64,000 bases of DNA, taken from NCBI GenBank assembly GCA_964016885.1, contig OZ024751.1:47182001-47246000 (forward strand), in the 5' to 3' direction. Source of the stretch: Eledone cirrhosa. Its lineage: Eukaryota. Each line of letters opens with the position of its first letter. The first letter of the stretch is position 1. The position numbers and the translations under genes are program-made. This document shows positions 7,448 to 64,000 of this stretch, piece after piece. The notes under the pieces were generated by a model. That model ran no database searches. It saw only the letters and a list, made by a program, of their open reading frames with translations, and had not been told where the DNA came from.

Positions 7448-7656
7448 ATATCCTACGACCTCATCTCACTTATTCATTTCTTTGCTCACTCCCCTCATGG
7501 TCCGATTGTTATGAATGACTTCCGACACCAACAGTTTGTCCTCGTCAATGGAATGTTGAAACTCACAGATGTCGATGACACTGGAATTGGTGACCCACAT
7601 TGTTCCACACAGGCTGATTGTGCTCTCCATTTCTCACCTTCACAACTCCAGACCAA
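7448..7656 (+). CDS. PKDCC: PKDCC-like exon with catalytic loop and DFG-equivalent motif
   Basis: ccacag| ... |gttagt, 209 nt phase 0/2. ISYDLISLIHFFAHSPHGPIVMNDFRHQQFVLVNGMLKLTDVDD... versus PKDCC [32 protein letters not shown]. Confidence 0.95.
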
Positions 7657-7715
7657 GTTAGTCATATTTTCTTAACATTTTTCTTGTTTGAACATTATTA
7701 TTATTATTATTATTT

Positions 7716-8482: not shown

Positions 8483-8600
8483 TTTATTAAAAAAGGTAAA
8501 AACTGTTGTTACAAATCATCCCTTAAGTAATTCAGATTCTACTGTGTCCCCTTTTGTATATTTGTTGTTTTTTTACTTCACGTTTTTGTTGACCTTTCAG

Positions 8601-8851
8601 AATCCCCTGTCGGAATGGCCATTGTGTCGGACTCAACGAGAAGAAGAATATTTTCAATGCAGGTCGCCATTTTATTATTTTCCGACTACCATATGGTGCT
8701 CCACTGTCCCTCCATCCACTTCTCTACGATGTCGTTTCTGGCTTTACTAACTTAACAATGACTGCTGATACACTTCTACAACAAATGCAAAAGGCTGTAG
8801 ACCTGTACAAAACTGGTCGTTATTTAAACAGGACTTATCCTGTTAAAACAC
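8601..8851 (+). CDS. PKDCC: PKDCC-like exon
   Basis: tttcag| ... |gtgagt, 251 nt phase 2/1. IPCRNGHCVGLNEKKNIFNAGRHFIIFRLPYGAPLSLHPLL...AVDLYKTGRYL versus PKDCC CEGMNEKRNLYNAYRFF...LYRSGQYL. Frame is continuous with flanking exons. Confidence 0.93.
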
Positions 8852-8933
8852 GTGAGTATACGTACCGATGACTTAACTCTTAATATCCTCTACATTTAGC
8901 AGGAAATATCTAAAAGCAGGTTTGTTAATTCAA

Positions 8934-9334
8934 ATCATCATTTCATCATCATCATCATCATTTTACGTTCACTTTTTCCCTGCTTGCAAGGGTGGGACGG
9001 GAACTGATTCTGGCTTGATTTCTACAGCTGGATGCCCTTCCTAACACCAACCTTATTTACAGTGAGTGCTGGGTGCTTTTTTGCCGTGGCACCTGCACGA
9101 CCACTTTACAGTGAGCGCTGGGTGCTTTTTTGCCGTGGCACCTCCATGACCACTTTACAGTGGAATGATATGGACCCCAGCCCCTATCATCTCATTTCTA
9201 CAGCTGAGTAAACTGAGGCAATGTGAAATAAAGTGTCTTGCTCAAGGAAACAACACATCACCCAGTCTGAGAATTGAACTCACAACCTTTCGATTGCAAG
9301 GCCAATGCTCTAACCACTAAGCCATGTGCCTCCA
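8934..9334 (-). mobile_element. SINE family A copy with internal duplication
   Basis: Reverse complement of 40407-40744. Confidence 0.88.
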
Positions 9335-9339
9335 TGTCA

Positions 9340-9952
9340 ATAGTATCTTACCTAGGAGACAGGTTTGTTAATTAAAATGTCTATAGTATCTTTACTAGGG
9401 GACAGGTTTGTTAATTCAAATGTTTATAGTATCTTTACTAGGGGACAGGTTTGTTAATTCAAATATTTATAGTGTCTTTACCAATAGACAGGTTTGTTAA
9501 TTAAAATGTTTATAGTACCTTTACAAGTAGACAGGTTTGTTGAAATGTTTATAGTATCTTTAATAGGGGACATGTTTGTTAATTCAAATGTTTATAGTAT
9601 CTTTACTAGGGGACAGGTTTGTTAATTCAAATATTTATAGTGTCTTTACTAATAGACAGGTTTGTTAATTAAAATGTTTATAGTACCTTTACAAGTAGAC
9701 AGGTTTGTTGAAATGTTTATAGTATCTTTAATAGGGGACATGTTTGTTAATTCAAATGTTTATAGTATCTTTACTAGGGGACAGGTTTGTTAATTAAAAT
9801 GTTTATAGTACCTTTACAAGTAGACAGGTTTGTTCAAATGTTTATAGTATCTTTAATAGGGGACAGGTTTGTTAATTCAAATGTTTATAGTATTTTTACT
9901 AGTGGACAGGTTTTTTTTAATTCAAATGTTTATAGTATCTTTAGTAGGGGAT
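9340..9952. repeat. About 43-bp minisatellite GACAGGTTTGTTAATTCAAATGTTTATAGTATCTTTACTAGGG, about 14 copies
   Basis: Directly visible, with shorter variant units recurring. Confidence 0.93.
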
Positions 9953-10135
9953 AGATTGTTGTGAGAATTTGCAGTAAACTAAATACTTACCCCATTAAAC
10001 ACATGAATATACCATACCAGAATGGAACACAGTTGTCTGGCCTCAGAACATGATAACCTGTCTCACTCACACAAGCCACAGTGATGATGATGATGATGAT
10101 GATATATGTGTGTTTGTATATATTTGTATACACAC

Positions 10136-10173
<38 letters not shown>

Positions 10174-10871
10174 ACCCATGCTAGCGTAGAAGACGTTAAA
10201 TGATGATGATGATTATACACATATACAAACATACATATATATATATATGTATATATGTATATATATGTGTATGTATATGTATATATATATGTATAAATTG
10301 CATGTATACACACATACATAGACAGACAATGAGAGAGAGAGCAATTGAGAAATTCTTGTTTCTCAGGGAGATCTCTTGGGAGGAAATTTTCAGCACCAGC
10401 TCATGTGTATAAACTAACAAAAACATGTATCTATTATGTTCTGTTTGCCCCACCTTCAGCTGTAAGTTGGGTTAGCAGAACCGGTAGGAGGTAGGGGTCA
10501 TATGCCCCATCCTCAGCTGTAAGTTGGGTTAGCAGAAAGAGTAGGAGGTAGGGCGGATGGGGGGGGGGGGGGGGGTCATACGTAATTCTTCCATCTTGCA
10601 GAATTTGGTTTCGTCATTTTCACATTGTGAATTCTCATCTTTTTGTGGTGAGGTTGACTGCACTTTTCCTATAGTACTTTTTATAACCCTTTGGACTTGT
10701 TATATTTTCTATGATGCTGGAGTACTAACAATTTTATCTCAGACGTAACTTCCGACTAGAAAACGTGAGACTTTGAAGTGAGGCTCCAACCAAACACCTG
10801 AAGAGACGTGTTGCTTATTTATAAAAAGTCTGCCGAGTCCATTTCTTTAACCCTTTAGTATTCACATTACT

Positions 10872-11213
10872 ATGGCTTAGTGGTTAGAGCATTGGCCTTG
10901 CAATCGAAAGGTTGTGAGTTCAATTCTCAGACCGGATTATGTGTTGTTTCCTTGAGCAAGACACTTTATTTCACATTGCTCCAGTTTACTCAGCTGTAGA
11001 AATGAGATGATAGGACTGGGGTCCCTATCATTCCACTGTAAAGTGGTCGTGCAGGTGCCACGACAAAAAGGCACCCAGCACTCACTGTAAATGAGGTTGG
11101 TGTTAGGAAGGGCATCCAGCTGTAGAAATCAAGCCAGCATCAGTTCCCGTCCCACCCTTGCAAGCAGGGAAAAAGTGGACGTAAAATGAAATGATGATGA
11201 TGATGATGATGAT
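10872..11213 (+). mobile_element. SINE family A copy nested in a piggyBac-like MITE
   Basis: Near-identical to 40415-40744. The flanks are the two halves of the TTAA MITE 10847-11398. Confidence 0.88.
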
Positions 11214-12040
11214 ACTATTATATTTTCATGGTAAAGGCTTTTCCTCGCATAATTATGTCACATAATATCGAATCTATGAGATTTTGAAAATATTTATTTT
11301 GAGAACAATACCTTAACATCAATTTGAGCGACCAGTTACAGCCAGTTTCAACAGATAGAGGTAGAGAATTCCGGCCGGTTTGAACATTAAAGGGTTAATC
11401 CCAAAGCATGTTCACCACAACAGTACTCCTTAACTATCTACTATAAGACTGACTAGATAGTTTCTATATATCACCAGATAGGTTTACTGATGGAGAAGAT
11501 TTATGATCAGTGGCATTCCAGCCATGCCCATCTCCTCTTTTTTTCTTATGTGCATGCAGTGGATTGGCAGTATTGGTAGAGGGTCGGACGGCAAGCTTTG
11601 CAGCACAGAGTTACGGCCCTTTATGATCTGAGTTCAAATCCTGCCAAGGTTAACTTTGCCTTTCATCCCTACGGGGTCGATAAAATAAAGTACCAGTAAT
11701 GTACTGGGTAATTGCTGGCCTTGTGCCAAAAGTAGAAACAATTATGTTATTTCACATGTCCTTTTTTTTCTAAAGACTATAGCGTATTATTAAAGGGAGA
11801 TTTGGCTGCTATTTCTAGCAGGTCAAGCAAACACATAGAAACTGCTTTGTTGGTTCATATTATGATGTTATGAATACATCATTACGTTATCTAATATGCC
11901 TTTTTTTTCTAAAGACCATAGTGTGTGTGAGTGATTAGAGGGAGATTTGGCTGCTATTTCTAGCAGATCAAGCAAACACATAGAAACTGCTTTGTTGGTT
12001 CATATTATTATGTTGTTTTTGTTTGTATTATTTTGTTTAG

Positions 12041-12217
12041 AATACAAAGAATATCGTAAAAGTGATCTACCAGGTAAATATGACTACAAATGCAGGGCTT
12101 CCATGTCGGGAACGAGCTGTACTTTCTCAGTATTTGATCAGAAGGAAGCTGAAGATGTCTGTGAAAGGGATCCAGAGTGTTTTGGCTTTGTCATGACTAA
12201 AGAAACTACATGGACAG
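12041..12217 (+). CDS. PKDCC: PKDCC-like exon, Cys-rich C-terminal region
   Basis: gtttag| ... |gtgaga, 177 nt phase 1/1. YDYKCRASMSGTSCTFSVFDQKEAEDVCERDPECFGFVMTKETTWTG versus PKDCC [46 protein letters not shown]. Confidence 0.93.
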
Positions 12218-13083
12218 GTGAGATGACATTTAGAGATAGATATATTTTTTATGCATGACTAGCAGCAGTACCCGGCTTTACCCAGGGTTGTTTATATCTA
12301 CAATAAATATAATTATAATCACCTCAAGAAACTGAGCCTTACAAAGGAGATAACACAAGATCAAGCTGATTGTTGATATGCCATAATACAAAGGACTCCC
12401 CGTCCACCATTTTAAGCATTGCAACGCTAAAAGTAAACATGGTGAGAGATGGGTGGCCACATTGTTTGGTAATCAATCAGAGACGGTATAGGATTTGAGA
12501 GGATACTTTAGTATGATTTTCAAATAATTTTTTAGATAATCAAGAATTTGAAGGGATTTAGTAATATAACTAACTTTTTCATTATTAAGCTAGTGTCTGG
12601 AACATAACTTAACAAAGGTTCTTACGTAAAATTATGATGGAAGGTTTTTTAGATAAATATAAACACCTTAAAATACATGGTTTTATATTGTAGAACTTGG
12701 GTGCTTTCCTTTAATTTTCCTTCTACTTTTATTCTTGGCTATGCTCAGTGTCAATACCCATCCACCTCATCTAGGGTTTAAATAGCCTCACCAACTCACA
12801 ATTGACCAAGCATGGTAAGTAAGGCTACAACTCTGAAGACATGACCAAAACCAAACCAAAAGGTGTGGAGGTCAACCAGGCAGGGGGTTCCTCCTATAGG
12901 AGTGAAAAGGCCCTGGATTGGATTGGATATAGGTCAATTGAGAGGGGTGTCCTCCAACAGGAGTGAGGAGACCTTGGATTGCATTGGATTGAATTTGATG
13001 CTAAGGCATCGCCTGAATTTAATTGATTAAATTAACCCTAGCACTTATTTTTTCAACCTGCGACTTACTTTATTGATCTCTCT

Positions 13084-37448: not shown

Positions 37449-38180
37449 AGAGGGATTAGATGTTGTTTACTCGAGAGAAGGCTACATTGGTATGGTCACG
37501 TGATGCGCATGAAAGACGACAGCTGTATAACAAAGTGCAGGGCAATAAAGATAGATGGTAGCCACGGAGTAGACAGACCCAGGAAAACCTGGGACGAGCT
37601 GATAAATTCCGACCTCACACACTTACACCTCTCCAAGACAATGTCACTGGACCGAGACCTTTGGCGGTACTCAGTAACAGAGAAGACCCGCCTTACCTAA
37701 ATACAAAGTAAAACCTACTAGTCAGTAGGCATCTCTAACAAAATACACCCCCGTCCCACCCCATCCACACCGCCCTCTTCAATGCAAAGTTATGTTGGTG
37801 CCACAACATCCAGGCCGAAACAAACGAGATCGTGTAGGTGTCACGACAAAAAAACACAGTCCACGCTGTAATGTGACCGTGTAGGCAACACGGTAAAAAC
37901 CTCCCAGTCCCACACTGTAAATGTGGTTGGTGTTAGGAAGGGCATCCAGCTGTAGAAAACACGCCAGACAGTCCACGCTGTAATGTGGCCGTGTAGGTAA
38001 CACGGTAAAAACCTCCCAGCCCCACACTGTAAATGTGGTTGGTGTTAGGAAGGGCATCCAGCTGTAGAAAACCTGTCAGACAGTCCTATGCGAGCAAGAC
38101 AACCACTCTTGCCTCAAGTGGGAAAACCCCCGTCCAAACCCATGCAAGCGTGGAACAGGGACGTTAAACGATGATGATGA
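37449..38180 (+). mobile_element. 5'-truncated RTE-clade LINE
   Basis: WYGHVMRMKDDSCITKCRAIKIDGSHGVDRPRKTWDE is homologous to the C-terminus of ORF 62857-63987, followed by 3' UTR and (GAT)n tail. Confidence 0.9.
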
Positions 38181-38187
38181 TATATAT

Positions 38188-38218
<31 letters not shown>

Positions 38219-38231
38219 CAAAGGTATATAT

Positions 38232-38397
38232 ATCATCATCATCAACGTTTAACGTCCGTGTTCCACGCTTGCATGGGTTTGGACGGGGGTTTTCCCACTT
38301 GAGGCAAGAGTGATTGTCTTGCTCGCATAGGACTGTCTGGCGGGTTTTCTACAGCTGGATGCCCTTCCTAACACCAACCACATTTACAGTGTGGGAC
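38232..38397 (-). mobile_element. Short RTE 3' tail insertion
   Basis: Reverse complement of about 38020-38180 with (CAT)n tail. Confidence 0.85.
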
Positions 38398-38415
38398 CAT
38401 ATATATATATCAAAG

Positions 38416-38455
<40 letters not shown>

Positions 38456-38466
38456 AAGGTATATAT

Positions 38467-38960
38467 TGAGTTAGGAACTCAAAATAGCTCTAAGAAAGAG
38501 ATATTTCCGAGCCGTATATTATAATAGAATATAAAGGAAAACGAGCAGATATATACATATATGTGTTCAAATCGAATAAACCTGGCTGCTATTTTCAGTG
38601 GTGTAAGTTTGTGAGACGCGCTAGGATGCCATGTGCGCTGAAATGTTTATATATAGCACACTATTCAGTTTCTTAATATACTTAGAAGTGTCTAGGATAC
38701 TAATTCATCACCCACTGATGAGCTTGAATTGGTAATTCTATTCACAATTAACATTGCGAAACAACAAGTTGTCTGGGTGATCGATAGTTACCACCATTCA
38801 GGTTTGTATTTATTTTCTTGATTTTTTTTCTTAAATTGAGACAAGCAACAAACCCAATTGTCTATAGTTAGTATTCTTTTCACCTTAGCAAATCTCGTCC
38901 CTTACGATTTGAACACATATATGTATATATCTGTGTTCGTTTTTCCTTTATATTCTATTA

Positions 38961-38964
<4 letters not shown>
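38467..38964 (+). mobile_element. TA-flanked fold-back element carrying a hammerhead (probably Penelope-derived)
   Basis: Inverted arms 38518-38574 / 38905-38964, hammerhead in the loop, (TA)n on both sides. Confidence 0.65.
38707..38781 (+). ncRNA. Type I hammerhead ribozyme motif (canonical core)
   Basis: atcaccca-CTGATGA-gc...gc-GAAA-caacaagttg-TC-tgggtgat. Perfect 8-bp stem I, G-C closing stem II, stem III ACAA/UUGU, GUC cleavage triplet. Confidence 0.85.
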
Positions 38965-39010
<46 letters not shown>

Positions 39011-39263
39011 GTTTTATGTAAGCTTGACTGCCGTGGCAGCCCACTAAATTAGGTCAATTTATTTGGTAAAATTGACTCTGGAATTATGATTGAAGGCCAG
39101 ATCGATGACAACCGACCTGATGGGATTTGAAACAGCATTTAATTGACTGGCCTATTCCTACATCTTCGAAGGAAACACAAATGTCTGTTGACAAAAATAT
39201 TGTGAGCATTTACTAGGGCTGCCACAAACCTAGTAGAAAAATGGTTAAAACGTGAAGGCCTCA

Positions 39264-39295
<32 letters not shown>

Positions 39296-40406
39296 GTTGT
39301 TGCTGATAATGAAATAAAACAATATAGGGCGATAGTTGAGTTTAGCGCCCCACTTTTGATATCAACTGCCGATTGACAAAAGTGAAAGTGAAACGCTTAA
39401 CTCCAGAATCGCTCATATTGTTGATAGCAAACCTGCCAAGTACATGTAAGAGATCACCCTTTGATGAGTGGAAGGAATACTCGAGCACTCTTCCTCCAGA
39501 ACCTTCCCAAGAATAAATGGACGGAGAAGACGAGGTTGATTTGATAGAATTGTTAGAATTTGTTCTGGGTTCAAATCCCGCCAAGATGTTCATTGCCTTT
39601 CATTGTTTCGAGATCAATAAAGAAAACACTAGCCGGTCCATCATTGCTATGTAAAATAAAAAGAAACAAAAAAAAAACAAAAGAAAATCAAACATCAGCA
39701 TTGCCATTATACAGAGTGGACTGGGCGCCATGATGAAATCCCACAAGCTCCCTCTGTAAGGTGGTTATGTTGGTGCCACGATGAAAAGAATCTAGTTTAC
39801 TCTGTATGATGGTCGTGCTAATGCCACGATAAAATTCTCCCAGTACATGCTGTAAAATGTTTAGTGTTAGGAAGAGCATCCAGCCATAGAAACCCGACCC
39901 CCAAACAGAGCATATCAGCAGTCTAGCCTGAAGATATGACAACCTATCTAACCTATGTGAGCTTGGAAAATAGATGTTAACTGGTGGTAGTGGTGATCGT
40001 TGTTATACTGATGATGATGATGATTATGCTGAATTTGTGTTTAAATAGCTGTCATTTTTGATATGTCATTTACTTCAGCAAGAAGAAAAAAAAAAAAAAT
40101 AAGCATAAGAAATAAGCATAGAGAAAACAGAATCCTGTATGAACTTAAGGTCCTTAACGAACCTCAATTAGTTGAGTAAGACAGCTAAAATAACCCTGTA
40201 ATATATACTAGATATAATAACAGATCTCATGGCAAAGAGAGAAAGTAGCTATTATCTGTTGTAACAACAACAACAGTACTAACAGGTACAAAAACAGGTG
40301 CACAAAGACTCCTCTCTGTGGTCACACAATCTACTTGACATAGCAGCCAAATCTCCTCCTCGAATCATACCTTATCACCTTAAAAAAAAAAATGAATAAT
40401 ATCTAT

Positions 40407-40744
40407 GGAGGCACATGGCTTAGTGGTTAGAGCATTGGCCTTGCAATCGAAAGGTTGTGAGTTCAATTCTCAGACCGGGTGATGTGTTGTTTCCTTGAGC
40501 AAGACACTTTATTTCACATTGCTCCGGTTTACTCAGCTGTAGAAATGAGATGATAGGGACTGGGGTCCCTATCATTCCACTGCAAAGTGGTCGTGGAGGT
40601 GCCACGGCAAAAACGCACCCAGCACTCATTGTAAATGAGGTTGGTGTTATGAAGGGCATCCAGCTGTAATCAAGCCAGAATCAGTTCCCGTCCCACCCTT
40701 GCAAGCAGGGAAAAGTGGACGTAAAATGAAATGATGATGATGAT
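40407..40744 (+). mobile_element. tRNA-derived CORE-type SINE (family A), full length
   Basis: A box tggcttagtggttag, B box gttcaattc, core ccttgagcaagacactt, RTE-like tail and (GAT)n. Confidence 0.88.
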
Positions 40745-40789
40745 CTTCCTTGGATAATGTCCTCCTAATCTGTTATTGGATTGAGGCCT

Positions 40790-41705
40790 GTTGACCGATG
40801 TTGTGAACTGATGGTATCTGTTGACCTATGTCATGACCTGGAGATAGTTACCTCCTCTGTTGACCAATGTGGTGAACTGGAGGTATATCTGTTGACCGAT
40901 ATGGTGAACTAGAGGTATATCTGTTGACCAATGTGTTGAACTGGAGGTATATCTGTTGACCAATGTGTTGAACTGGAGGTATATCTATTGACCAATGTTG
41001 TGAACTAGAGGTATATCTGTTGACCAATGTTGTGAACTGGAGGTATATCTATTGACCAATGTTGTGAACTAGAGGTATATCTGTTGACCAATGTTGTGAA
41101 CTAGAGGTATATCTGTTGACCAATGTTGTGAACTGGAGGTATATCTGTTGACCGATATGGTGAACTAGAGGTATATCTGTTGACCAATGTGTTGAACTGG
41201 AGGTATATCTATTGACCAATGTTGTGAACTAGAGGTATATCTGTTGACCGATATGGTGAACTGGAGGTATATCTATTGACCAATGTTGTGAACTGGAGGT
41301 ATATCTGTTGACCGATATGGTGAACTGGAGGTATATCTGTTGACCGATATGGTGAACTGGAGGTATATCTGTTGAGCAATGTGTTGAACTGGAGGTATAT
41401 CTGTTGACCGTTATGGTGAACTGGAGGTATATCTGTTGACCGATATGGTGAACTATAGGTATATCTGTTGACCAATGTGTTGAACTGGAGGTATAAATAT
41501 CCTTGATGTAAGACAAATAACGGGTCAAGATTTAATTCCCCTGTTGACCAATGTGTTGAACTGGAGGTATAAATATCCTTGATGTAAGACAAATAACAGG
41601 TCAAGATTTAATTCCCTTGTTGACCGATGTGGTGAACTGAAAGTATTTCCTTCCCCTGTTGACCAATGTGTTGAACTGGAGGTATAAATATCCCTGATGT
41701 AAGAC
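40790..41705. repeat. 31-32-bp minisatellite GAACTGGAGGTATATCTGTTGACCAATGTTGT
   Basis: More than 20 copies, ending in longer composite units. Confidence 0.95.
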
Positions 41706-41937
41706 AATGATGTAACTGATTTAATTAGTTTGTACTAATTAAAGGTTACACTGATTGGAACTGTATGAACGGTATAGTAAAGTATTGGTTATTTTAATTA
41801 GTAAGATTGCTTGTAGGAAACGAGGCAGGAATTAAACCAGATCAACTGTGAGTGAATCACCCTGAAGCTATCAATGTTATGTATGTGTGTGTGTGTATAT
41901 ATATGTATATGTGTGTGTGTGTGTGTATATATGTATA

Positions 41938-41968
<31 letters not shown>

Positions 41969-42448
41969 ATATATATATATATATGTTTAGACATGTACAT
42001 ATAGATAAATACTCACACACATATATGGGTGATGAAGCCAAAATCTACTCTGCCACCACTACTCATGTGCAGCACCCATACACATTCTACTCCAACATAC
42101 TCGTTGACAGATTATCAATCAGTATACAATTAACAAGTAATCACTAATCACAGTGTAAGGATTAATTTAAAAAAAAAAAGACACCAACAAAACAAACAAA
42201 AAAAAAACTGCAATGCATTTGTGTTTATTAATTTATTGTTTGTCTTGTTAGTGTCATCACCACCATAGCTTTTGTTGTTGTTGCCATTACCACCAACACC
42301 ACTATCATCATCATAGCTTTGTTGCTATTGTTGTTATTACCACCATCACCATCATCAACACAACCATTTTAGCTTTTGTTGTTGTTATCATCATCATCAC
42401 CATCAACACCATTCATTAGGGAGGGAGGTAGTCCATTCTTGTGGTTCC

Positions 42449-42756
42449 TTAACCCTTTAGCATTTAAACCGGCCGTATCCGGCCAGAATTCTCTCTGCTC
42501 TTTCTGTTCAAACTGGCCATAACCGGCTGTGACCAGCTGCTCATATTGATGATGATGTTTTGTTCTCAAAATAAATATCATCAAAATGTCGTAGATTCGA
42601 TATTGTGTGAGATAATTGTGAAATAAAGTGTTTACCATGAAAATAAATATCAAAATTTCGTAGATTCGATGTTCTGTGAGATAATTATGTGAAATAAAGT
42701 GTTTACCTTGAAAATACAACAGTAAATATAGAGTAATGTAAATAGTAAAGGGTTAA
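42449..42756 (-). mobile_element. piggyBac-like MITE with internal about 60-bp duplication
   Basis: ttaaCCCTTTAG...TAAAGGGttaa ends; tagattcgat...gtttacc is repeated. Confidence 0.8.
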
Positions 42757-43013
42757 GAAGATACAATATCATCTTATTTCCAGAATTCCAGAACTTGCAT
42801 ATTTCTTCACATTACAAACTGCTAACTACAGTTGCAGGAAAGCTGGGATGTAAATTAATAATTAACAGTAGATATTGTTGCTAGGAATATGTCAAGAACT
42901 ATAACCTAAAAACTCCATCCTTCCATCATGTGACAGCAGTGCCAATGGAAATTAAAATATCTTAAATACTCTATCTTTCGCACCAAGTGACAGTGCCAAT
43001 GGAAATTAAAATA

Positions 43014-43341
43014 CAGTGGAACTTCAGTTTAGAAATGCCTCTCATCATGAACAAATCGGTTCATGAACAATTTTTCCAAACATAAAATCTCTCGGTTGGT
43101 AAATGTTGTCTTGAATAACTGTCTCGAATAACAAACATACAACCTGGCAACAAGGTTTGGCGACAAGCTGGGAGTATCAGCAGGAAAGTGTCACTTGCTG
43201 TGTAATTAGTTACTATGGTGATATCTATCTGTCTTTCTCACTCACTCACTCACTCATATCAACATTTGATATGGGAAAAATAGTTTTGGCTAACAAATGG
43301 CCTTCAGGAACAAATTAAGTTCATAAACTGAGATTCCACTC
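43014..43341. mobile_element. Tigger/pogo-like MITE
   Basis: TA|CAGTGGAACTTCAGTTTA...TAAACTGAGATTCCACTC|TA. Confidence 0.75.
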
Positions 43342-43756
43342 TATCCTAAACACTCCATCTTAACATCATGTGAAGGTGCCAATATAAGAACTTCATCTTT
43401 CCATCATGTGATGGTACCACCTTCTTTCCATCATATGACAGTGCCAATATAAATTTAAATGTCAATCCACATTTATGGTGAAACTCAATTAAACTCTACG
43501 ACTATATTTCTGTTGCAAATATTCAATTAACATTTTGTAATTCTACCTCCTTACTCTTAACATCTGTGAAGAATTTTAGTAGAATTTGATAAGTTTGGAT
43601 TTCATTTTAAAATGTTCTTCTCGTTTGCACTGCATCTCTCCCTTCCTCTTGTATTTTATTTAAAAAAAAAACTTTTTATATTAATACTTGGTTTTGTGCA
43701 GCTTTTTAAAGAATAAATAGTCGTAAATTCCTTTACTTTGTCTCACATTATGTATA

Positions 43757-43801
<45 letters not shown>

Positions 43802-44300
43802 AGAGAGAGAGTTTTATTCGTACATCTTCATTTTACTACATAAACTTATGTAATAAAATGAAGATGTACAAATAAAACCATATCTCTTATTTATTATACT
43901 AAAACTTTGGTTCATACCTTACAGAGAAAATCCTAAGGAATACAAATCGTAGAGTATTTTATGTCTGTTTATGAAAAAGTCGGTTAATTATTTAATCAAC
44001 CAACTTTCATCAACTGATATATATATATATAAATTATAAAAACAGATTAAATTTTAAGCAAGAATCGCTGCTTTCACCCTTCTACAGGATATATTTCCAA
44101 GAGAGGTTGTTTCTTCTTCTTCTCTCTCTGCTAACCTATGTAAACATGGAAAAAAAATAGATGTTAAAAGATGATGATAATGATTATGATGATGTTGATA
44201 TCATATATAGCTGCATTTAACAGCCATGTTTCCATACTTCTAACAACTGTAATTTGTAAAATGTTATTTGCTATTTCATCTCCTTAATTATATTTTGTAG

Positions 44301-46869: not shown

Positions 46870-47915
46870 CAAATTATAGTCCTTGTGACTAAATCAGAAA
46901 CCATTATTATTATTATGACGTATAATATAAACTACCAGTAATGCACTGGGTAATTATTGTCCTTGTGCCTAAAGTAGAAACCATTATTATTATTATTATG
47001 ACGTATAATATAAACTACCAGTAATGCACTGGGTAATTATTGTCCTTGTGACTAAATCAGAAACCATTATTATTATTATTATGACGTATAATATAAACTA
47101 CCAGTAATGCACTGGGTAATTATAGTCCTTGTGCCTAAAGTAGAAACAATTATTATTATTATTATGACGTATAATATAAACTACCAGTAATGCACTGGGT
47201 AATTATAGTCCTTGTGACTAAATCAGAAACCATTATTATTATTATTATTATGACGTATAATATAAACTACCAGTAATGCACTGGGTAATTATAGTCCTTG
47301 TGACTAAATCAGAAACCATTATTATTATGACGTATAATATAAACTACCAGTAATGCACTGGGTAATTATAGTCCTTGTGCCTAAAGTAGAAACCATTATT
47401 ATTATTATTATGACGTATAATATAAACTACCAGTAATGCACTGGGTAATTATAGTCCTTGTGACTAAATCAGAAACCATTATTATTATTATTATGACGTA
47501 TAATATAAACTACCAGTAATGCACTGGGTAATTATAGTCCTTGTGCCTAAAGTAGAAACCATTATTATTATTATTATGACGTATAATATAAACTACCAGT
47601 AATGCACTGGGTAATTATAGTCCTTGTGCCTAAAGTAGAAACCATTATTATTATTATTATGACGTATAATATAAACTACCAGTAATGCACTGGGTAATTA
47701 TAGTCCTTGTGACTAAAGTAGAAACCATTATTATTATTATTATGACGTATAATATAAACTACCAGTAATGCACTGGGTAATTATAGTCCTTGTGCCTAAA
47801 GTAGAAACCATTATTATTATTATTATGACGTATAATATAAACTACCAGTAATGCACTGGGTAATTATTGTCCTTGTGACTAAATCAGAAACCATTATTAT
47901 TATTATTATGACGAT
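46870..47915. repeat. About 80-bp minisatellite derived from the SINE B 3' end, about 13 copies
   Basis: Unit taccagtaatgcactgggtaatt..ccttgtgcctaaagtagaaaccattattatt equals the SINE B tail. Confidence 0.92.
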
Positions 47916-47966
47916 AATAAATATAATTATTTCTGATGTGATCTTTTTCTTCTTCTTCCTCTGCAG

Positions 47967-54228: not shown

Positions 54229-56169
54229 GTATGTTATTGTTTTTATTTATTTAATCTATCTTTATATGTTCTACACACGCACACACACAGATACATACAT
54301 CGGGGGCACTATAAAATAAGTACCAGGTACCAGTAATATACCACGATGAGAGAGGATGAGATGCTGGGGGTGGTGGTGTCAATCGATTGAACCTGTCTTA
54401 TATACCGCGTGCCATTATTGAGAATCAATCATGCGTACTTAGACACACACCTAGGCTGGTTGAGATGGTTGACAATAATCCGAAGACTCAGTCTTCGACA
54501 ATAAAATAGTACCAAGGAGGTTAGTTAGGCTGATTACCACCCGCCCTCTATTTCGATGTCGATTTCCAGTTATGATAAAAATAGAAATGTTTCATATACA
54601 GACAACAAAAAAAAAAAATCGTACTTAAGAAATGAACTGGTTTTTATAGAGGAATAATAAATGTTATTACTCGGAATCTGATAAGAAGAATCCAAAGGCA
54701 CAGTTTTCGGCAGTGCGGTACTGCTGATAATGATTTCTTTGAAATATACAAAGCTACCCATTTTTATTGGGTGGCAGGTGGGTGTAGTCGTTTATAATAT
54801 CGACTACAGTACGTGATTGGTATCTAGTTTATCGATTCCGGAAGAAGAAAAAGACAAAGTCTACACAGATCGAATTTAAATTAAGAATCTAAAAATTCTG
54901 CAAAATATTTTGTCCAACCACTTTTACGATGTGTGTATTTCTAATCCTGCGTATATTCTATTTAGTTTCCTATATGAGTGTGTGTGTATATATCTACGCC
55001 TGTCTGTATGTATTTATTACGCCACTATCTATCCATATGTATGTCTGTGCGTGTATATATGTAAACATATAGCTTCATATATCCCTACATGTATGTGTGT
55101 GCAGGTGTATATCTATGTATATTTAATTTGGTTTATTTCAATATGAGGTATGTAGGTATGTATGTACGTATGTATGTGAGTGTGTGTGTTTACACACATA
55201 CACATATTTATAAGCATGTGTTTATATCACTTATCTATCAATCCAGATTTAAGTAATGCTAACCATGCCGTATGTGTGTGATCATCGATTTTACGTCGGG
55301 TTGTCCATGCTTCCATGGGTTGGACGGATATGTTACACCCAGATGCTCTTGATAATGTCAAAACTTTTAGTCACATTTTACGACACGCAAGATTACGGTG
55401 TATCTATTCTCACAACTGGGATACACACATTGTATGTATGTATGTATGTATGTATGTATGTATGTGTGTGTGTGTATGTATATATATAGATATATCATGT
55501 ATATATATAGATATATCATCACCATTTAACGTCCGGTTACCCTGCTAGCAATGAATAAACGGGTTTCCACACTGGGTCAGTACTCAAGCAGAGCTACAGA
55601 CCTCTCAGATGGGCCTGAGGTCTACATCGAGGTTACATACGATCCCTCGCTCTATTGAGTGCATTTTATTGTGGCACTATCACTAGGGAGGTTGCCATGT
55701 CTTTGACACAACTGAGAAGTCCTGACACTTTGTTTTGCAGGTTTTCTATCGCTTCATACCTTTTCTATCATCAAGTGCTTTACAGAATGTACTGGGTGCA
55801 TCTATTGTATAGATCACCAACTCTAGGGAGGTTGTCGTATCTTTGGCACAACTGAAAAACGTCCCTATACTTTACAGAGTGTACTGGGTGCATCTATTGT
55901 GTAGATCACCAACTCTAGGAGGTTGCCATGTCTTTGCTTGGCAAGTTTTCTATGGCTGGATGCCCTTCACATCACTAACCACTTTACAGAGTGTATTGGG
56001 CACCTAGAGTGGTTGTCAGTCATTGTCTCAGTTGAAGTGTTCTCTCTAACCTTTGGAGGAGAGAATGAAGATAAGTATAATGTTATAGGTGTATGACAAG
56101 TGTATTGGGATTTGACAAGGTGATATATAGGAACAAAGGGATGATCTGATAACATGGGGGAAGGGGGCA

Positions 56170-58860
56170 GTAACTTGTGTATAACTGCCTCTACTGTGTT
56201 TCTCATGAGTTGGTCCACAATAGTAACTTGTGTATAACTTCCTCTTCTGTGTTTCTCATGTGTTGGTTCCCACAATAGTAACTTGTGTATAACTTCCTCT
56301 TCTGTGTTTCTCATGAGTTGGTTCCCACATTAGTAACTTGTGTATAGCTTACTCTTATGTGTTTCTCATGAGTTGGTTCCCACAATAGTAACTTGTGTAT
56401 AACTTCCTCTTCTGTGTTCCCCATGAGTTGGTTCCCACATTAGTAACTTGTGTATAACTGCCTCTACTGTGTCTCCTATGAGTTGGTTCCCACATTAGTA
56501 ACTTGTGTATAACTTCCTCTTCTGTGTTTCTCATGAGTTGGTTCCCACAATAGTAACTTGTGTATAACTTCCTCTACTGTGTTTCTCATGAGTTGGTTCC
56601 CACAATAGTAACTTGTGTATAACTTCCTCTTATGTGTTTCTCATGAGTTGGTTCCCACAATAGTAACTTGTGTATAACTTCCTCTTCTGTGTTTCCCATG
56701 AGTTGGTTCCCACAATAGTAACTTGTGTATAACTGCCTATACTGTGTTTCTCATGAGTTGGTTCCCACAATAGTAACTTGTGTATAACTTCCTCTTCTGT
56801 GTTTCTCATGAGTTGGTTCCCACAATAGTAACTTGTGTATAACTTCCTCTACTGTGTTTCTCATGAGTTGGTTCCCACAATAGTAACTTGTGTATAACTT
56901 CCTCTTATGTGTTTCTCATGAGTTGGTTCCCACAATAGTAACTTGTGTATAACTTCCTCTTCTGTGTTTCCCATGAGTTGGTTCCCACAATAGTAACTTG
57001 TGTATAACTGCCTCTACTGTGTTTCTCATGAGTTGGTTCCCACAATAGTAACTTGTGTATAACTTCCTCTTCTGTGTTTCTCATGAGTTGGTTCCCACAA
57101 TAGTAACTTGTGTATAACTTCCTCTTCTGTGTTTCTCATGAGTTGGTTCCCACAATAGTAACTTGTGTATAACTGCCTCTACTGTGTTTCTCATGAGTTG
57201 GTTCCCACAATATTACCTTGTGTATAACTTCCTCTACCGTGTTTCTCATGAGTTGGTTCCCACATTAGTAACTTGTGTATAACTTCCTCTTCTGTGTTTC
57301 TCATGAGTTGGTTCCCACATTAGTAACTTGTGTATAACTTCCTCTTCTGTGTTTCTCATGAGTTGGTTCCCACAATATTATCTTGTGTATAACTTCCTCT
57401 ACCGTGTTTCCCATGAGTTGGTTCCCACAATAGTAACTTGTGTATAACTTCCTTTACTGTGTTCCCCATGAGTTGGTTCCCACAATAGTAACTTGTGTAT
57501 AACTTCCTCTTCTGTGTTTCTCATGAGTTGGTTCCCACAATAGTAACTTCTGTATAACTTCTTCTACTGTGTTCCCCATGAGTTGGTTCCCACAATAGTA
57601 ACTTGTGTATAACTTCCTCTACTGTGTTCCCCATGAGTTGGTTCCCACAATAGTAACTTGTGTATAACTTCCTCTACTGTGTTCCCCATGAGTTGGTTCC
57701 CGCAATAGTAACTTGTGTATAACTTCCTCTACTGTGTTCCCCATGAGTTGGTTCCCACAATAGTAACTTGTGTATAACTTCCTCTACTGTGTTCCCCATG
57801 AGTTGGTTCCCACAATAGTAACTTGTGTATAACTTCCTCTTCTGTGTTTCTCATGAGTTGGTTCCCACATTAGTAACTTGTGTATAACTTCCTCTTATGT
57901 GTTTCTCATGAGTTGGTTCCCACATTAGTAACTTGTGTATAGCTTCCTCTTCTGTGTTTTTCATGAGTTGGTTCCCACATTAGTAACTTGTGTATAGCTT
58001 CCTCTTCTGTGTTTCTCATGAGTTGGTTCCCACAATAGTAACTTGTGTATAACTTCCTCTTCTGTGTTTTTCATGAGTTGGTTCCCACATTAGTAACATG
58101 TGTATAACTTCCTCTTCTGTGTTTCTCATGAGTTGGTTCCCACAATAGTAACTTGTGTATAACTTCCTCTTCTGTGTTTCTCATGAGTTGGTTCCCACAT
58201 TAGTAACTTGTGTATAACTTCCTCTTCTGTGTTTCTCATGAGTTGGTTCCCACAATAGTAACTTGTGTATAACTTCCTCTTCTGTGTTTCTCATGAGTTG
58301 GTTCCCACATTAGTAACTTGTGTATAACTTCCTCTTCTGTGTTTCTCATGAGTTGGTTCCCACATTAGTAACTTGTGTATAACTTCCTCTTCTGTGTTTC
58401 TCATGAGTTGGTTCCCACAATAGTAACTTGTGTATAACTTCCGCTTCTGTGTTTCTCATGAGTTGGTTCCCACAATAGTAACTTGTGTATAACTTCCTTT
58501 ACTCTGTTCCCCATGAGTTGGTTCCCACAATAGTAACTTGTGTATAACTTCCTTTACTGTGTTCCCCATGAGTTGGTTCCCACAATAGTAACTTGTGTAT
58601 AACTTCCTCTACTGTATTTCTCATGAGTTGGTTCCCACAATAGTAACTTGTGTATAACTTCCTCTACCGTGTTCCCCATGAGTTGGTTCCCACAATAGTA
58701 ACTTGTGTATAACTTCCTCTTCTGTGTTCCCCATGAGTTGGTTCCCATAATAGTATGTTGTTTATAACTTCCTTTACTGCATCCCTCCTTAGTTCCAACA
58801 ATATTACCTTGTGTATAACTTCCTCTACTGCATCTCCCGGGAGTTAGTTCCCACAATAGT
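56170..58860. repeat. 55-bp satellite, about 49 copies
   Basis: TAGTAACTTGTGTATAACTTCCTCTTCTGTGTTTCTCATGAGTTGGTTCCCACAA. Confidence 0.97.
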
Positions 58861-59059
58861 CTCTTGAGTACATGTATTTAGATTAATTAGATTTTTGAAT
58901 TTAATTTTATTTAGCTCTACACTCATACAATCTACAAAGTCTACAACTTAAATAAAGAGAAAGACAAAAACTTGTGTATATAACTTCAACAACAAAAAAA
59001 TTATTAAAGCATATTACCACTGAGTGTAGAATTAATGAACTGTATAATGGAATTGATGT

Positions 59060-61422
59060 CTGCTGGGTGTATAATTGATCTACTGGGTGTATAATTGATC
59101 TACTGGGTGTATAATTGATCTACTGGGTGTATAATTGATCTACTGGGTGTATAATTGATCTACTGGGTGTATAATTGATCTACTGGTGTATAATTGATCT
59201 ACTGAGTGTATAATTGATCTACTGGGTGTATAATTGATCTACTGGTGTATAATTGATCTACTGGGTGTATAATTGATCTACTGGTGTATAATTGATCTAC
59301 TGGGTGTATAATTGATCTACTGGGTGTATAATTGATCTACTGGGTGTATAATTGATCTACTGGGTGTATAATTGATCTACTGGTGTATAAATGATCTACT
59401 GGGTGTATAATTGATCTACTGGGTGTATAATTGATCTACTGGGTGTATAATTGATCTACTGGGTGTATAATTGATCTACTGGTGTATAATTGATCTACTG
59501 GGTGTATAATTGATCTGCTGGGTGTTTAATTGATCTACTGCGTGTTTAATTGATCTACTGGGTGTATAATTGATCTACTGGGTGTTAAATTGATCTACTG
59601 GGTGTTTAATTGATCTACTGGGTGTATAATTGATCTACTGGGTGTTAAATTGATCTACTGGGTGTATAATTGATCTACTGGGTGTATAATTGATCTACTG
59701 GGTGTATAATTGATCTACTGGGTGTTTAATTGATCTACTGGGTGTTTAATTGATCTACTGGGTGTATAATTGATCTACTGGGTGTATAACTGATCTACTG
59801 GGTGTATAATTGATCTACTGGTGTATAATTGATCTACTGGGTGTATAATTGATCTACTGGGTGTATAATTGATCTACTGGGTGTATAATTGATCTACTGG
59901 TGTATAATTGATCTACTGAGTGTATAATTGATCTACTGGGTGTATAATTGATCTACTGGTGTATAATTGATCTACTGGGTGTATAATTGATCTACTGGTG
60001 TATAATTGATCTACTGGGTGTATAATTGATCTACTGGGTGTATAATTGATCTACTGGGTGTATAATTGATCTACTGGTGTATAATTGATCTACTGGGTGT
60101 ATAATTGATCTACTGGTGTATAAATGATCTACTGGTGTATAAATGATCTACTGGGTGTATAATTGATCTACTGGGTGTATAATTGATCTACTGCATGTAT
60201 AATTGATCTACTGGTGTATAATTGATCTACTGGGTGTATAATTGATCTGCTGGGTGTTTAATTGATCCACTGGGTGTATAATTGATCTACTGGGTGTTAA
60301 ATTGATCTACTGGGTGTTTAATTGATCTACTGGGTGTATAATTGATCTACTGGGTGTTAAATTGATCTACTGGGTGTATAATTGATCTACTGGGTGTATA
60401 ATTGATCTACTGGGTGTATAATTGATCTACTGGGTGTTTAATTGATCTACTGGGTTTTTAATTGATCTACTGGGTGTATAATTGATCTACTGGGTGTATA
60501 ACTGATCTACTGGGTGTATAATTGATCTACTGGTGTATAATTGATCTACTGGGTGTATAATTGATCTACTGAGTGTATAATTGATCTACTGGGTGTATAA
60601 TTGATCTACTGGGTGTATAATTGATCTACTGGGTGTATAATTGATCTACTGGGTGTATAATTGATCTACTGGGTGTATAATTGATCTACTGGTGTATAAT
60701 TGATCTACTGGGTGTATAATTGATCTACTGGGTGTATAATTGATCTACTGGTGTATAATTGATCTACTGGGTGTATAATTGATCTACTGGGTGTATAATT
60801 GATCTACTGGGTGTATAATTGATCTACTGGGTGTATAATTGATCTACTGGTGTATAATTGATCTACTGGTGTATAATTGAACTACTGGTGTATAATTGAT
60901 CTACTGGTGTATAATTGATCTACTGGGTGTATAATTGATCTACTGGGTGTATAATTGATCTACTGGGTGTATAATTGATCTACTGGGTGTATAATTGATC
61001 TACTGGTGTATAATTGATCTACTGGGTGTATAATTGATCTACTGGGTGTATAATTGATCTACTGGGTGTATAATTGATCTACTGGTTGTATAATTGATCT
61101 ACTGGTTGTATAATTGATCTACTGGGTGTTTAATTGATCTACTGGGTGTTTAATTGATCTACTGGGTGTTTAATTGATCTACTGGGTGTATAATTGATCT
61201 ACTGGGTGTATAATTGATCTACTGGGTGTTAAATTGATCTACTGGTTGTATAATTGATCTACTGGTTGTATAATTGATCTACTGGTTGTATAATTGATCT
61301 ACTGGTTGTATAATTGATCTACTGGGTGTTTAATTGATCTAATGGGTGTTAAATTGATCTACTGGGTGTATAATTGATCTACTGGGTGTATAATTGATTT
61401 ACTGGGTGTATAATTGATTTAC
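59060..61422. repeat. 19-20-bp satellite TACTGGGTGTATAATTGATC, more than 110 copies
   Basis: Directly visible. Confidence 0.97.
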
Positions 61423-62563
61423 TTACTTTCTTTGTATTATTACCGAATTAGTAGAGCATGGAATAAATATTTTGTTCCGGCTCTTTACGCTTTGAATTTA
61501 AATCCTGCCAAGGTTGACTTTGCCTTTCATCCTTCCCGGAGGTTGGGGAGGGGCGATACAATAAAGATATAAAGTACCAGTCATGTATTGAGGTCAATGT
61601 AATTGACTTTTCCTTCCCCATAGATTGTTGCTTTGTGGATTGGCAGTATCAGTAGAGTGTCTGATAACATGCCTTGCGGCATATACTTACGTCCCTTTGC
61701 ATTCTGAGTTCAAATCCCACTGAAGTTAGCTTTATAATAATAATAATAATGAAATTATTGTGAACAGTGCTCAGGTGCACTACAACTCATCAAAGGTGCA
61801 TGTATAGTACATAGAATAATATACAAATGTCAGGAAAGTGAACAGTGTATGAGTCATAATAAAATAAGGTGTGGTGTGGCCTAGGTATAACTATGTGGAG
61901 GTGTGTGGTTTAGTGGCTTTCAATCCTAAGAACATGAATTTGATTCCTGGTCTGGGTAGAGTAATAACCTTGAGAAAGACATTTTATTTCATGTTGCTCC
62001 AGTTCATACATCTGAAAAAAAAAATGAGTATCAACAACAACAGCAGCAGCAATCGGGGTGGGGTGGGAGGAATAGCCTTGTGATGGGGCAATGCTAGAGG
62101 CAAGCTTTGTAATGTGAATCACTTAATACAAGCGGAACTGGGATAAGATCCATCCTGATAAAATCCTGGACTTTAACCCCGTTTTTGTTACAAAACCACC
62201 TAAAACTGACCTCTAATTCTATGATACAAAACTATTTAGTTGACAATGTATATACACACAGGTATACTTCACTTTGTCATTTTAGAAGTTACAGCAATTT
62301 TTCTTCATATTACATGGCAAAAATAAACCTTGTGTTATGTTCATTTATTCAACTTTGTCGGTCTGCCAAAAAATCATTAAAAAAAAAAACCAATAAAAAC
62401 ATATAAAATCATAGGAGGAAGTTATAGTTTACTTGAAGCATTGCATATGGTATATAAAATCATATTTAATTAGTGTGTACTGTATGTACATTAAAGTACA
62501 TTGGGGAATGCCTCTTAGCAGTTATAATTTATGTAAGAACATTTGTTAAGCTATGTTCTGAAT

Positions 62564-64000
62564 ATCATCATCACCGTTTTACGTCCGTTCTTCCACGCTA
62601 GCATGGGTTAGACGGGTTGTCCTGTTGTGGGCAGTGTCTGGTCGGCTGACCATGCCTTGCTCATACAGGAACTGATCTGGCTTGATTTCTACAGCTGGAT
62701 GCCCTTCCTAACACCAACCTCATTTACAGTGAGTGCTGGGTGCTTTTTCGTGGCGCCTACACGTCCACTTTACAGTGTGGGCTGGGTGCTTTTTTGCCGT
62801 GGCACCTCCACGACCACCTTGCGGTGGGAGGAGTGGGGGCATATTGTTTATATGCTTCAGCATGTACCCATGGGAGGTCGGGTACCCTGTATTACTGCGT
62901 GACGCCAGAAGTCACGGTCGTGTGTCATTGTCTTTGAGAGGTGTAGTTGGGTAAGGTCGGCTTTTATCACCTCATCCCAAGTCATCTTGGGTCTCCCCAC
63001 TCCGCGGTTTCCATCAACTTCTAGTGCTCTGCACCTTTTTATGCAGCTGTCATCCTTCATACGCATCACATGTCCATACCAGCGTAACCGCCTCTCCTGC
63101 ACGCAGCATTTGATTCCTCTTATGCTCAGTCTCTCTCTCAATTCCTTTATGCTTTGTCGTTCACGTATATTACTGTTACACATCCATCGGAGCATGCAGG
63201 CTTCGTTTCTCTCTAATCTACGTAAGTCTTCCACCTTCAGCGCCCAGGTCTCACTACCATGCAACATCGCTGTTTGGATACACGCACCATACAGTCTGCC
63301 TTTCATTCTGAGGGAGAAGCCTTTTGCAGCTAGCAGTGGTAGTAGTTCCCTAAACTTCTTCCATCCCGTTCTTACCCTAGTTATTGTACTTTCTGAGCAC
63401 CCACCTCCGTTGCTAATTCGGTCACCTAGGTAGCAGAAGCTGTCTACTGTTTCTACAGGGCCCTCCCAGAGATTGGTGGTACTTGTTTCCTGTGGCTGTT
63501 TGCTTGCTGTTTCAGCACAGCTGCTGCATGTGAATCCTACATTCTTAATTAAGCTTCCTGAGATCCCGCTACATCTCTTGTGTACCCATTGTTTGCATTT
63601 GGGGCAGAGAATGGAGTTCCTACCTACACCTTTCCTATATACTGAGCAAGGCCATTTCCCTGAGGGGATCTGGGTTCTGTTTTCTCGTCTACATACAAGG
63701 ACCTTAGTCTTTGTCATGTTGACTTTGAGGCCCTTTCTCTCTAGTCCCTGCTTCCAGGTTTGGAATTTATTCTCTAGTTCTACCATAGATTCAGCTATGA
63801 GTGCGAGGTCATCAGCATACAGGAGTTCCCATGGGCATCCGGTCTTAAACTCCTCCGTTATTGCCTGCAGGACTATGATGAACAGGAGAGGGCTAAGAAC
63901 AGAGCCCTGGTGGACCCCAACCTGTATGCTAAATTCCTCGCTATACTCATTGCTAATCCTAACTTTGCTGACTGCTCCCCTATACATGGCTTGTACCGCT
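62564..64000 (-). mobile_element. RTE-clade LINE, 3' part (runs off the window end)
   Basis: Uninterrupted 376-aa ORF with RT motifs GVHQGSVLSPLLF, LLYADDL, FCYLG and WYGHVMR. 3' UTR 62564-62856 ends in (GAT)n. Confidence 0.95.
62857..63987 (-). CDS. LINE reverse transcriptase C-terminal half with a Cys/His PHD-like insert (partial)
   Basis: ORF track; YADD at about 63828-63839. Confidence 0.9.
   Translation of the reverse strand: MYRGAVSKVRISNEYSEEFSIQVGVHQGSVLSPLLFIIVLQAITEEFKTGCPWELLYADDLALIAESMVELENKFQTWKQGLERKGLKVNMTKTKVLVCRRENRTQIPSGKWPCSVYRKGVGRNSILCPKCKQWVHKRCSGISGSLIKNVGFTCSSCAETASKQPQETSTTNLWEGPVETVDSFCYLGDRISNGGGCSESTITRVRTGWKKFRELLPLLAAKGFSLRMKGRLYGACIQTAMLHGSETWALKVEDLRRLERNEACMLRWMCNSNIRERQSIKELRERLSIRGIKCCVQERRLRWYGHVMRMKDDSCIKRCRALEVDGNRGVGRPKMTWDEVIKADLTQLHLSKTMTHDRDFWRHAVIQGTRPPMGTC

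What the first reader, a model, noticed from the sequence alone, without database searches (positions are those of the whole stretch)
38707..38781. Canonical type I hammerhead ribozyme on the sense strand of the SNX24-like intron 1
Seen: atcaccca CTGATGA gc[32 nt]gc GAAA caacaagttg TC tgggtgat. It has the full catalytic core, a perfect 8-bp stem I, a G-C pair closing stem II, a stem III able to fold as a monomer, and a GUC site with predicted cleavage after C38773. It lies in the loop of a fold-back element, so no complementary arm sequesters it. Established: hammerheads occur in Penelope-like element pLTRs and in retrozymes. Inference: it could cut the host pre-mRNA co-transcriptionally inside the 23-kb intron, or mark a hammerhead-bearing non-autonomous retroelement family in cephalopods.
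Basis: partly seen in the sequence, partly recalled or inferred. Interest (0 to 1): 0.82.

Follow-up and report, generated by a model that had tools for sequence, protein, structure and literature searches.

The report
Hammerhead retrozyme beside its own minisatellite
The hammerhead ribozyme motif is real, but it is one of several hundred copies carried by a small non-coding repeat that likely spreads as a jumping RNA using Penelope-type enzymes; the unusual part is that a 13-kb minisatellite made of this repeat's own end sequence sits next to it and likely grew from it, filling over half of the host intron.

Summary
The motif is confirmed: intact core, 8-bp stem I, GUC site with C at 38773, on the sense strand of a 23.4-kb intron of a PX-domain gene. 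It is not a locus-specific device. It lies in a truncated copy of a 506-nt non-coding head-to-tail repeat with at least 640 copies. Copies end in (TA)n at two fixed sites about 87 nt apart and often carry an inverted 3' arm, as Penelope-like elements (PLEs) do. No linked ORF was found, so it best fits a PLE-mobilised non-LTR retrozyme. Stem III covaries across subfamilies. A 9-10 bp pseudoknot between the 5' flank and loop II is likely, though a rival loop-II helix is also kept. Cleavage and expression are untested, and the active fold is not the predicted minimum-energy fold. Two other hammerhead families sit in the same intron, and this copy shows no special conservation, so host regulation is unsupported. 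New here: the element's terminal motif is reiterated 2-5 times at 10 of 12 other loci read, and about 480 times (12.8 kb) beside this copy. The likely cause is a slippage seed later amplified at DNA level. An earlier scan note reached a similar 'ordinary PLE hammerhead' verdict on another genome.

The parts
38707..38781 (+). Type I hammerhead motif: stem I 38707-14/38774-81, core 38715-21, 2-bp stem II, 32-nt loop II, GAAA 38758-61, 4-bp stem III, predicted cleavage after C38773
38698..38706 (+). 5' flank strand predicted to pair (9 bp) with loop II 38726-38734 as a pseudoknot; any test construct should include it
   Evidence: rival helix
38726..38734 (+). Loop II strand: partner of the 5' flank (pseudoknot) or of 38745-38753 (stem II extension)
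38566..38964 (+). 5'-truncated forward copy of the 506-nt unit (unit positions 300-506 then 1-185, counted from the cleavage site), ending at 3' site A in (TA)n
38448..38574 (-). Inverted 3' arm of the same element (unit 127-273), ending at 3' site B; overlaps the forward copy by a short microhomology at 38566-38574
38965..39007 (.). (TA)n target microsatellite at the right end
23226..38466 (+). Minisatellite of about 482 units, (TA)n-CAAAGG and variants, the reverse complement of the element's site-B end; 12.8 kb after removing four insertions; abuts the inverted arm
20924..44300 (+). Predicted first intron (23,377 bp) of a PX-domain gene (SNX22/24-like, name recalled)

Best explanation
The hammerhead belongs to a truncated copy of a 506-nt, non-coding, head-to-tail repeat with hundreds of genomic copies, which likely spreads as a non-autonomous retroelement (non-LTR retrozyme) using the reverse transcriptase and endonuclease of Penelope-like elements. 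Shown: copy number, unit length, an identical head-to-tail junction, two fixed 3' end sites, (TA)n flanks, inverted arms, conserved core and covarying stem III. Inferred: active tandem copies are transcribed, and the hammerhead, probably helped by a pseudoknot, cuts once per unit to release monomers that may be circularised. A PLE protein nicks (TA)n and starts reverse transcription at one of two internal AT-rich sites. Priming from both target strands gives the inverted-arm plus forward-copy structure. At site B the enzyme sometimes slips and recopies the terminal motif, which is flanked by TA on both sides. Here such a seed was likely then amplified by DNA-level slippage and unequal exchange into the 12.8-kb minisatellite. 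The sense-strand intronic position is likely incidental, and any cleavage of the host pre-mRNA would be slow and a side effect.
For: Copies: 165, 398, 431 and 640 exact hits for four patterns, control 0 each. Unit is 506 nt and 33% GC. Of 165 site-B occurrences in the fetched loci, 85 end in (TA)n, 65 run into the head of the next unit, 8 reiterate the end and 7 are other; none was seen to enter an ORF. 3' ends cluster at unit 185-188 and 273, like the two internal start sites and 'tail' of a PLE (PMC11167929). Inverted 5'-truncated arms and (TA)n bias are PLE traits (PMC8557442). In 72 chosen copies 92.6% of cells pair; three stem III columns change on both sides (A-U/G-C, G-C/A-U, C-G/U-A); slid controls pair 29-41%. 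Of 27 copies with another base at position 17, 18 have A, 8 U and 1 G, fitting the NUH rule. The genome holds PLE fragments with GIY-YIG. End reiteration of 2-5 units sits directly on the element at 10 of 12 other loci read. Array variants come in runs with higher-order duplications, including an exact 1,032-bp repeat; template-exact units are 2 of 88 at the far end and 23 of 27 at 34.5-36 kb.
Against: No cleavage, expression or circular RNA was shown. No autonomous partner with a related terminal repeat was found among the loci fetched. The longest insertions seen are about 1.5 units and no trimer was seen, unlike long retrozyme arrays. The unit is longer than the 170-400 nt described in PMC7229834. 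Copies mostly read through the cleavage site: 56 of 76 arms picked by a downstream motif keep the whole hammerhead, and only 3 of 30 read non-C17 copies start exactly at the site. That fits circles or uncut RNA equally, so it gives no proof of cleavage in vivo. The active fold is not the predicted minimum. Covariation rests on few independent events among related copies.
Confidence: 0.78

Rival explanations
1. The unit is the solo or truncated pseudo-LTR of an autonomous Penelope-like element whose ORF-bearing copies were not sampled; the hammerhead is the usual pLTR ribozyme.
For: All end features are those of PLEs. PLE ORF fragments lie near several copies. HHRs are regular pLTR parts (PMC4209133).
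Against: The neighbouring ORFs examined belong to other families nested in (TA)n, with their own ends. All 65 read-throughs of site B enter the head of the same unit, also in a subfamily about 80% identical.
Confidence: 0.12
2. This copy has been co-opted and cleaves the PX-gene pre-mRNA inside intron 1, lowering or gating expression, like the conserved amniote intronic hammerheads.
For: Sense orientation; intact core, stems and pseudoknot strands; not masked by an antisense arm, unlike the motif pairs at 22094/22186 and 33612/34036.
Against: One of hundreds of copies. Zero structural changes is expected by chance at its divergence (about 0.15, from 11 of 329 changes outside) and is shared by 9 of 28 other copies. 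A rival fold is favoured. Introns tolerate many retrozymes in Xenopus, 42-44% of copies (10.64898/2026.07.22.740005).
Confidence: 0.07
3. The minisatellite was written largely by the reverse transcriptase itself, by processive telomerase-like repeat addition from the element's terminal template, before it copied the rest of the element.
For: The array reads as first-strand cDNA, lies almost wholly on one strand (370 against 2 motif hits) and runs straight into the element's end. Short reiterations recur at other copies. PLE RTs are the sister group of telomerase (PMC8557442).
Against: Variant units are clustered and whole blocks are duplicated, which points to DNA-level amplification. Only this locus has a long array: 102 of 125 pattern hits are in the window. 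Other seeds have 5 units or fewer.
Confidence: 0.1

Closest known systems
Non-LTR retrozymes of metazoans (Cervera and de la Pena 2020, PMC7229834; Li, Clavereau and Pollet 2026, bioRxiv 10.64898/2026.07.22.740005)
   Same: Type I hammerhead in a low-GC, non-coding head-to-tail unit; dispersed monomers and dimers; co-occurs with PLEs; mussel examples also lack the archetypal loop-loop nucleotides.
   Different: Unit is 506 nt (described RNAs 170-400 nt; consensus range 51-972 in the preprint). No long arrays seen. Copies show PLE insertion anatomy directly (two start sites, inverted arms, (TA)n). Circular RNA is not shown.
Pseudo-LTR hammerheads of Penelope-like elements (PMC4209133; PAc of Anolis, PMC11167929)
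   Same: Hammerhead upstream of two internal RT start sites, a tail, inverted 5'-truncated copies, AT-rich targets, mostly uncut templates.
   Different: No ORF linked. Tail is 86-88 nt instead of 30-40. Stem III has 4-5 bp rather than the minimal palindromic form. Stem II has 2 bp with a long loop.
Pseudoknotted hammerheads, including the human C10orf118 intronic hammerhead (Perreault et al. 2011, PMC3088659) and Rfam RAGATH-1-hammerhead
   Same: Very short stem II with a base-paired tertiary contact replacing the loop-loop interaction; weak RAGATH-1 match.
   Different: The predicted helix is longer (9-12 bp against 4-6). It sits in a repeat family and is not a conserved single-copy intron element. 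The Rfam score is far below the cut-off.
3'-terminal repeat slippage of eel LINE UnaL2 (PMC1636434)
   Same: Reverse transcription reiterates a short terminal repeat at initiation, likened to telomerase.
   Different: Here the template site is internal to a head-to-tail unit, the element is PLE-type, and one seed adjoins a 12.8-kb array.

Membership tests
Type I hammerhead ribozyme | Core CUGANGA, GAAA and NUH | tested here: met
   121 of 162 collected copies have the exact core (the collection allowed 2 mismatches per motif and many loci were picked by core patterns)
Type I hammerhead ribozyme | Three helices with stem I open-ended, supported by covariation | tested here: met
   stem III has 3 columns changed on both sides; stem II is nearly invariant (uninformative); inner stem I pairs are conserved
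Type I hammerhead ribozyme | Tertiary contact between the stem I and stem II regions | tested here: inconclusive
   Pseudoknot 91.7% paired with 2 doubly changed columns; rival loop-II helix 83.7%; few independent events
Type I hammerhead ribozyme | Self-cleavage | not testable with these tools
   needs an in vitro assay
Rfam hammerhead families (Hammerhead_1, RAGATH-1) | Score at or above the gathering threshold | tested here: not met
Non-LTR retrozyme | Type I hammerhead in short head-to-tail repeats | tested here: met
   Two hammerheads 506-507 nt apart at several loci; only about 1.5 units seen; the window copy has one hammerhead
Non-LTR retrozyme | Non-coding, low GC | tested here: met
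   33% GC; no long ORF within or joined to the unit in the loci scanned
Non-LTR retrozyme | Monomer size about 170-400 nt | tested here: not met
   506 nt; inside the 51-972 range of the 2026 preprint
Non-LTR retrozyme | Expressed as linear and circular RNA | not testable with these tools
   needs RNA data for this organism
Non-LTR retrozyme | No PBS or PPT; large TSD when present | not tested
   TSDs cannot be read in (TA)n flanks; PBS and PPT were not searched
Penelope-like element (autonomous) | ORF with RT and GIY-YIG between pLTRs | tested here: not met
   none linked in the loci scanned; the sample is partial
Penelope-like element (autonomous) | Partial tandems, inverted 5'-truncated copy, optional tail, microsatellite targets | tested here: met
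Co-opted intronic hammerhead (C10orf118/RECK type) | Single copy, conserved at the orthologous intron across species | tested here: not met
   multi-copy; no copy-specific constraint; cross-species conservation could not be tested

The most novel reading that the evidence does not exclude
A Penelope-type reverse transcriptase, working on a retrozyme RNA, adds telomerase-like repeats from a short internal template at interstitial (TA)n nicks and wrote much of a 13-kb array inside a host intron, giving a living intermediate between retrotransposition and telomere repeat addition.
Probability: 0.12. Interest if true: 0.85.

Novelty: new member of a known kind. Interest (0 to 1): 0.42.

Why it matters
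As a hammerhead in an intron it is ordinary: this genome carries many retroelement hammerheads, five in this window alone. Three things remain useful. First, the family shows at sequence level that a retrozyme-type unit is inserted with PLE hallmarks; a 2026 preprint argued this link from phylogeny, mainly in vertebrates. Second, it offers a natural hammerhead with a 2-bp stem II and a long predicted pseudoknot that competes with another helix, which is easy to test. Third, it catches a minisatellite next to its likely source, with short seeds at other loci. That makes the question of how telomerase-like PLE reverse transcriptases are directly testable with a defined template.

Tried and rejected
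Rfam: no hammerhead at gathering score; weak RAGATH-1 only. Search for an autonomous partner: ORFs near copies proved to be other families or unrelated LINEs where inspected. Two hammerheads 2.7 kb apart (L147) are a local duplication without a linking ORF, and the pair 5.7 kb apart (L061) flanks an unlinked PLE fragment. No genome-wide protein search for a partner was run. Pile-up of 5' ends at the cleavage site: not found; a mild cluster of ends within about 10 nt of the site was seen but not tested statistically. Hidden ORF across the unit junction: the script caught only 1 copy (longest stop-free run 35 codons), so this is not a real test. Expression: no RNA holder listed, which is no evidence either way. 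Laying three coded contig sets of one sample showed the family present, but no piece spanned this locus and the array was not checked. Copy-specific selection: not detected. Lunse et al. 2016 (PMC5785218) was not held. Earlier scan notes by place and by sequence: none. Literature searches for a description of this family or of PLE-end-derived arrays listed nothing that describes them; most hits were seen as listings only, subscription papers are not covered, and Repbase or Dfam could not be checked. Supplements of the bioRxiv preprint are closed and those of PMC7229834 and PMC4209133 were not read; they may list cephalopod hammerheads.

Full report
Observation. The motif is present exactly as described: an 8-bp stem I, core CTGATGA at 38715, a 2-bp stem II around a 32-nt loop, GAAA at 38758, a 4-bp stem III with a 4-nt loop, and GTC ending at 38773. 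A relaxed descriptor finds five hammerhead motifs in the window against 0.03 per shuffle in 60 shuffles. Rfam has no hammerhead at gathering score and only a weak RAGATH-1 match (23.2 bits, E 0.19). The host gene runs on the + strand, with an intron from 20924 to 44300 and PX-domain exons after it. The SNX24 label is recalled, and the gene model is from sequence alone.

The element. A BLAST-type search of the own genome (3.0 Gb) scored 40 of 2,730 candidates and gave copies about 84-96% identical over most of the query. Exact patterns give 165, 398, 431 and 640 hits, with 0 control hits each; these are lower bounds. Tandem copies define a 506-nt unit of 33% GC. The same head-to-tail junction is kept in a subfamily about 80% identical. 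In the 70 loci picked by a motif downstream of the ribozyme, 3' ends cluster at unit positions 185-188 and 273. Of 165 occurrences of the second site across fetched loci (16 loci from the window's array left out), 85 end in (TA)n, 65 continue into the next unit, 8 reiterate the end and 7 are other (this set includes loci chosen for reiteration). The window copy is a forward piece (38566-38964) ending at the first site plus an inverted arm (38448-38574) ending at the second. Two internal start sites, a tail, inverted truncated arms and microsatellite targets are PLE traits (PMC11167929, parts 1-2 of 4 read; PMC8557442, passages). This matches non-LTR retrozymes (PMC7229834, passages and section 14; 10.64898/2026.07.22.740005, parts 1-3 of 5), apart from the longer unit and the lack of long arrays.

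Ribozyme structure. I aligned 72 of 162 collected copies, chosen by hand to cover subfamilies. The proposed structure is 92.6% paired, against 89.1% in shuffles and 29-41% when slid. Stem III changes on both sides in three columns. Stem II is nearly invariant and so uninformative. The nine bases just 5' of stem I (38698-38706) are complementary to loop II (38726-38734). Over 10 columns this helix is 91.7% paired, with C-G/U-G/U-A and A-U/U-A changes. Cautions: 5 of the 10 U-A cells at one column come from a subfamily with a one-base insertion on both strands and depend on the alignment; the changes are few independent events on a poorly resolved tree; and a rival helix inside loop II is 83.7% paired. 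Pseudoknots of this kind are common in hammerheads with short stem II and needed for speed (PMC3088659, passages and section 10). In isolation the active fold (-8.9 to -11.9 kcal/mol, plus a -8.1 duplex not modelled with it) is weaker than a rival fold (-20.5), so fast monomer cleavage is not assured. Among 30 read of 56 copies with a non-C base before the site, 27 keep the upstream ribozyme (18 A, 8 U, 1 G), which fits the NUH rule.

Is the template cut? Of 76 arms chosen without reference to the core, 56 keep the whole hammerhead, 10 start in the core or loop II and 10 start between GAAA and +10. Only 3 of the 30 copies above start exactly at the site. So templates were uncut or re-ligated; this matches the PAc result that uncut RNA is the main substrate (PMC11167929), and does not distinguish circles from linear multimers.

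Host effect. The window copy has 11 of 329 private changes outside and 0 of 57 inside the structured positions; 9 of 28 other copies also have none. Two other families place sense-strand motifs in the same intron (22186, 34036), each with an antisense twin. Hammerheads are already counted in a cephalopod genome (235 Hammerhead_1 hits in giant squid; PMC6962438, passages). A regulatory role is therefore unsupported, though incidental cleavage is possible.

The adjoining array. From 23226 to 38466 the intron is filled by about 482 units of (TA)n-CAAAGG and variants, 12.8 kb without four insertions, 55% of the intron. The unit is the reverse complement of the element's second 3' end, nearly all on one strand (370 against 2), and it runs into the inverted arm. 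A two-unit pattern has 125 hits in the genome, 102 of them in this window. At 10 of 12 other loci read, 2-5 units sit directly on an element end; about 9 further hits outside the window were not listed or read. This is what slippage at the start of reverse transcription would leave, as known for UnaL2 (PMC1636434, passages). The long array has clustered variants, block duplications and an exact 1,032-bp repeat, and its far end is almost free of template-exact units (2 of 88). DNA-level amplification of a short seed is therefore more likely than processive synthesis. The assembly length was not checked with reads.

Verdict. A real hammerhead motif in a new family of a known kind: a non-autonomous, likely PLE-mobilised retrozyme (confidence 0.78). 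Interest is 0.42, carried by the array-seeding end reiteration and the testable pseudoknot. Other papers seen: PMC4209133 (part 1 of 4), PMC6765202 (passages). Searches that found no description of this family or array.

Noticed in passing
window 22030-22270: Inverted pair of minimal PLE-type hammerheads (cores at 22094 on -, 22186 on +) with palindromic stem III; a different family, with similar motifs in L133 and L160.
   Followed up: partly
window 33427-34281: Fold-back insertion inside the array from a third family, with hammerhead motifs at 33612 (-) and 34036 (+); its 3' end resembles that of a PLE family seen in L066 and L073.
   Followed up: partly
window 22953-23225: 273-bp near-perfect palindrome between (TA)n runs at the left edge of the array.
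   Followed up: no
window 23365-25400: Exact 1,032-bp direct duplication inside the array: a very recent duplication or an assembly artefact.
   Followed up: no
window 34976-35542, 37856-38086, 38021-38395: 112-bp tandem units of a SINE-like repeat, and a 161-bp inverted pair of the same family, inserted in the array.
   Followed up: no
window 40856-41495, 46872-47919, 56169-58860, 59059-61423: Further minisatellites with periods 32, 83, 55 and 20 bp; origins not examined.
   Followed up: no
window 387-12255: Exon-like ORFs of an upstream + strand gene; one weakly matches the FAM69-type kinase domain (PF12260, E 0.028).
   Followed up: partly
window 62860-63999 (-): 380-codon open frame of a LINE reverse transcriptase with a PHD-like finger.
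   Followed up: partly
window 9263-9326 (-): tRNA-like Rfam hit at 29.9 bits, probably a tRNA-derived SINE head.
   Followed up: no
L211-L213, L222, L224-L229, L232: A subfamily of the element with a GUA cleavage triplet in place of GUC.
   Followed up: partly
L179:1136-1627: Four tandem repeats of an internal 91-96 nt piece of the unit in one copy.
   Followed up: no
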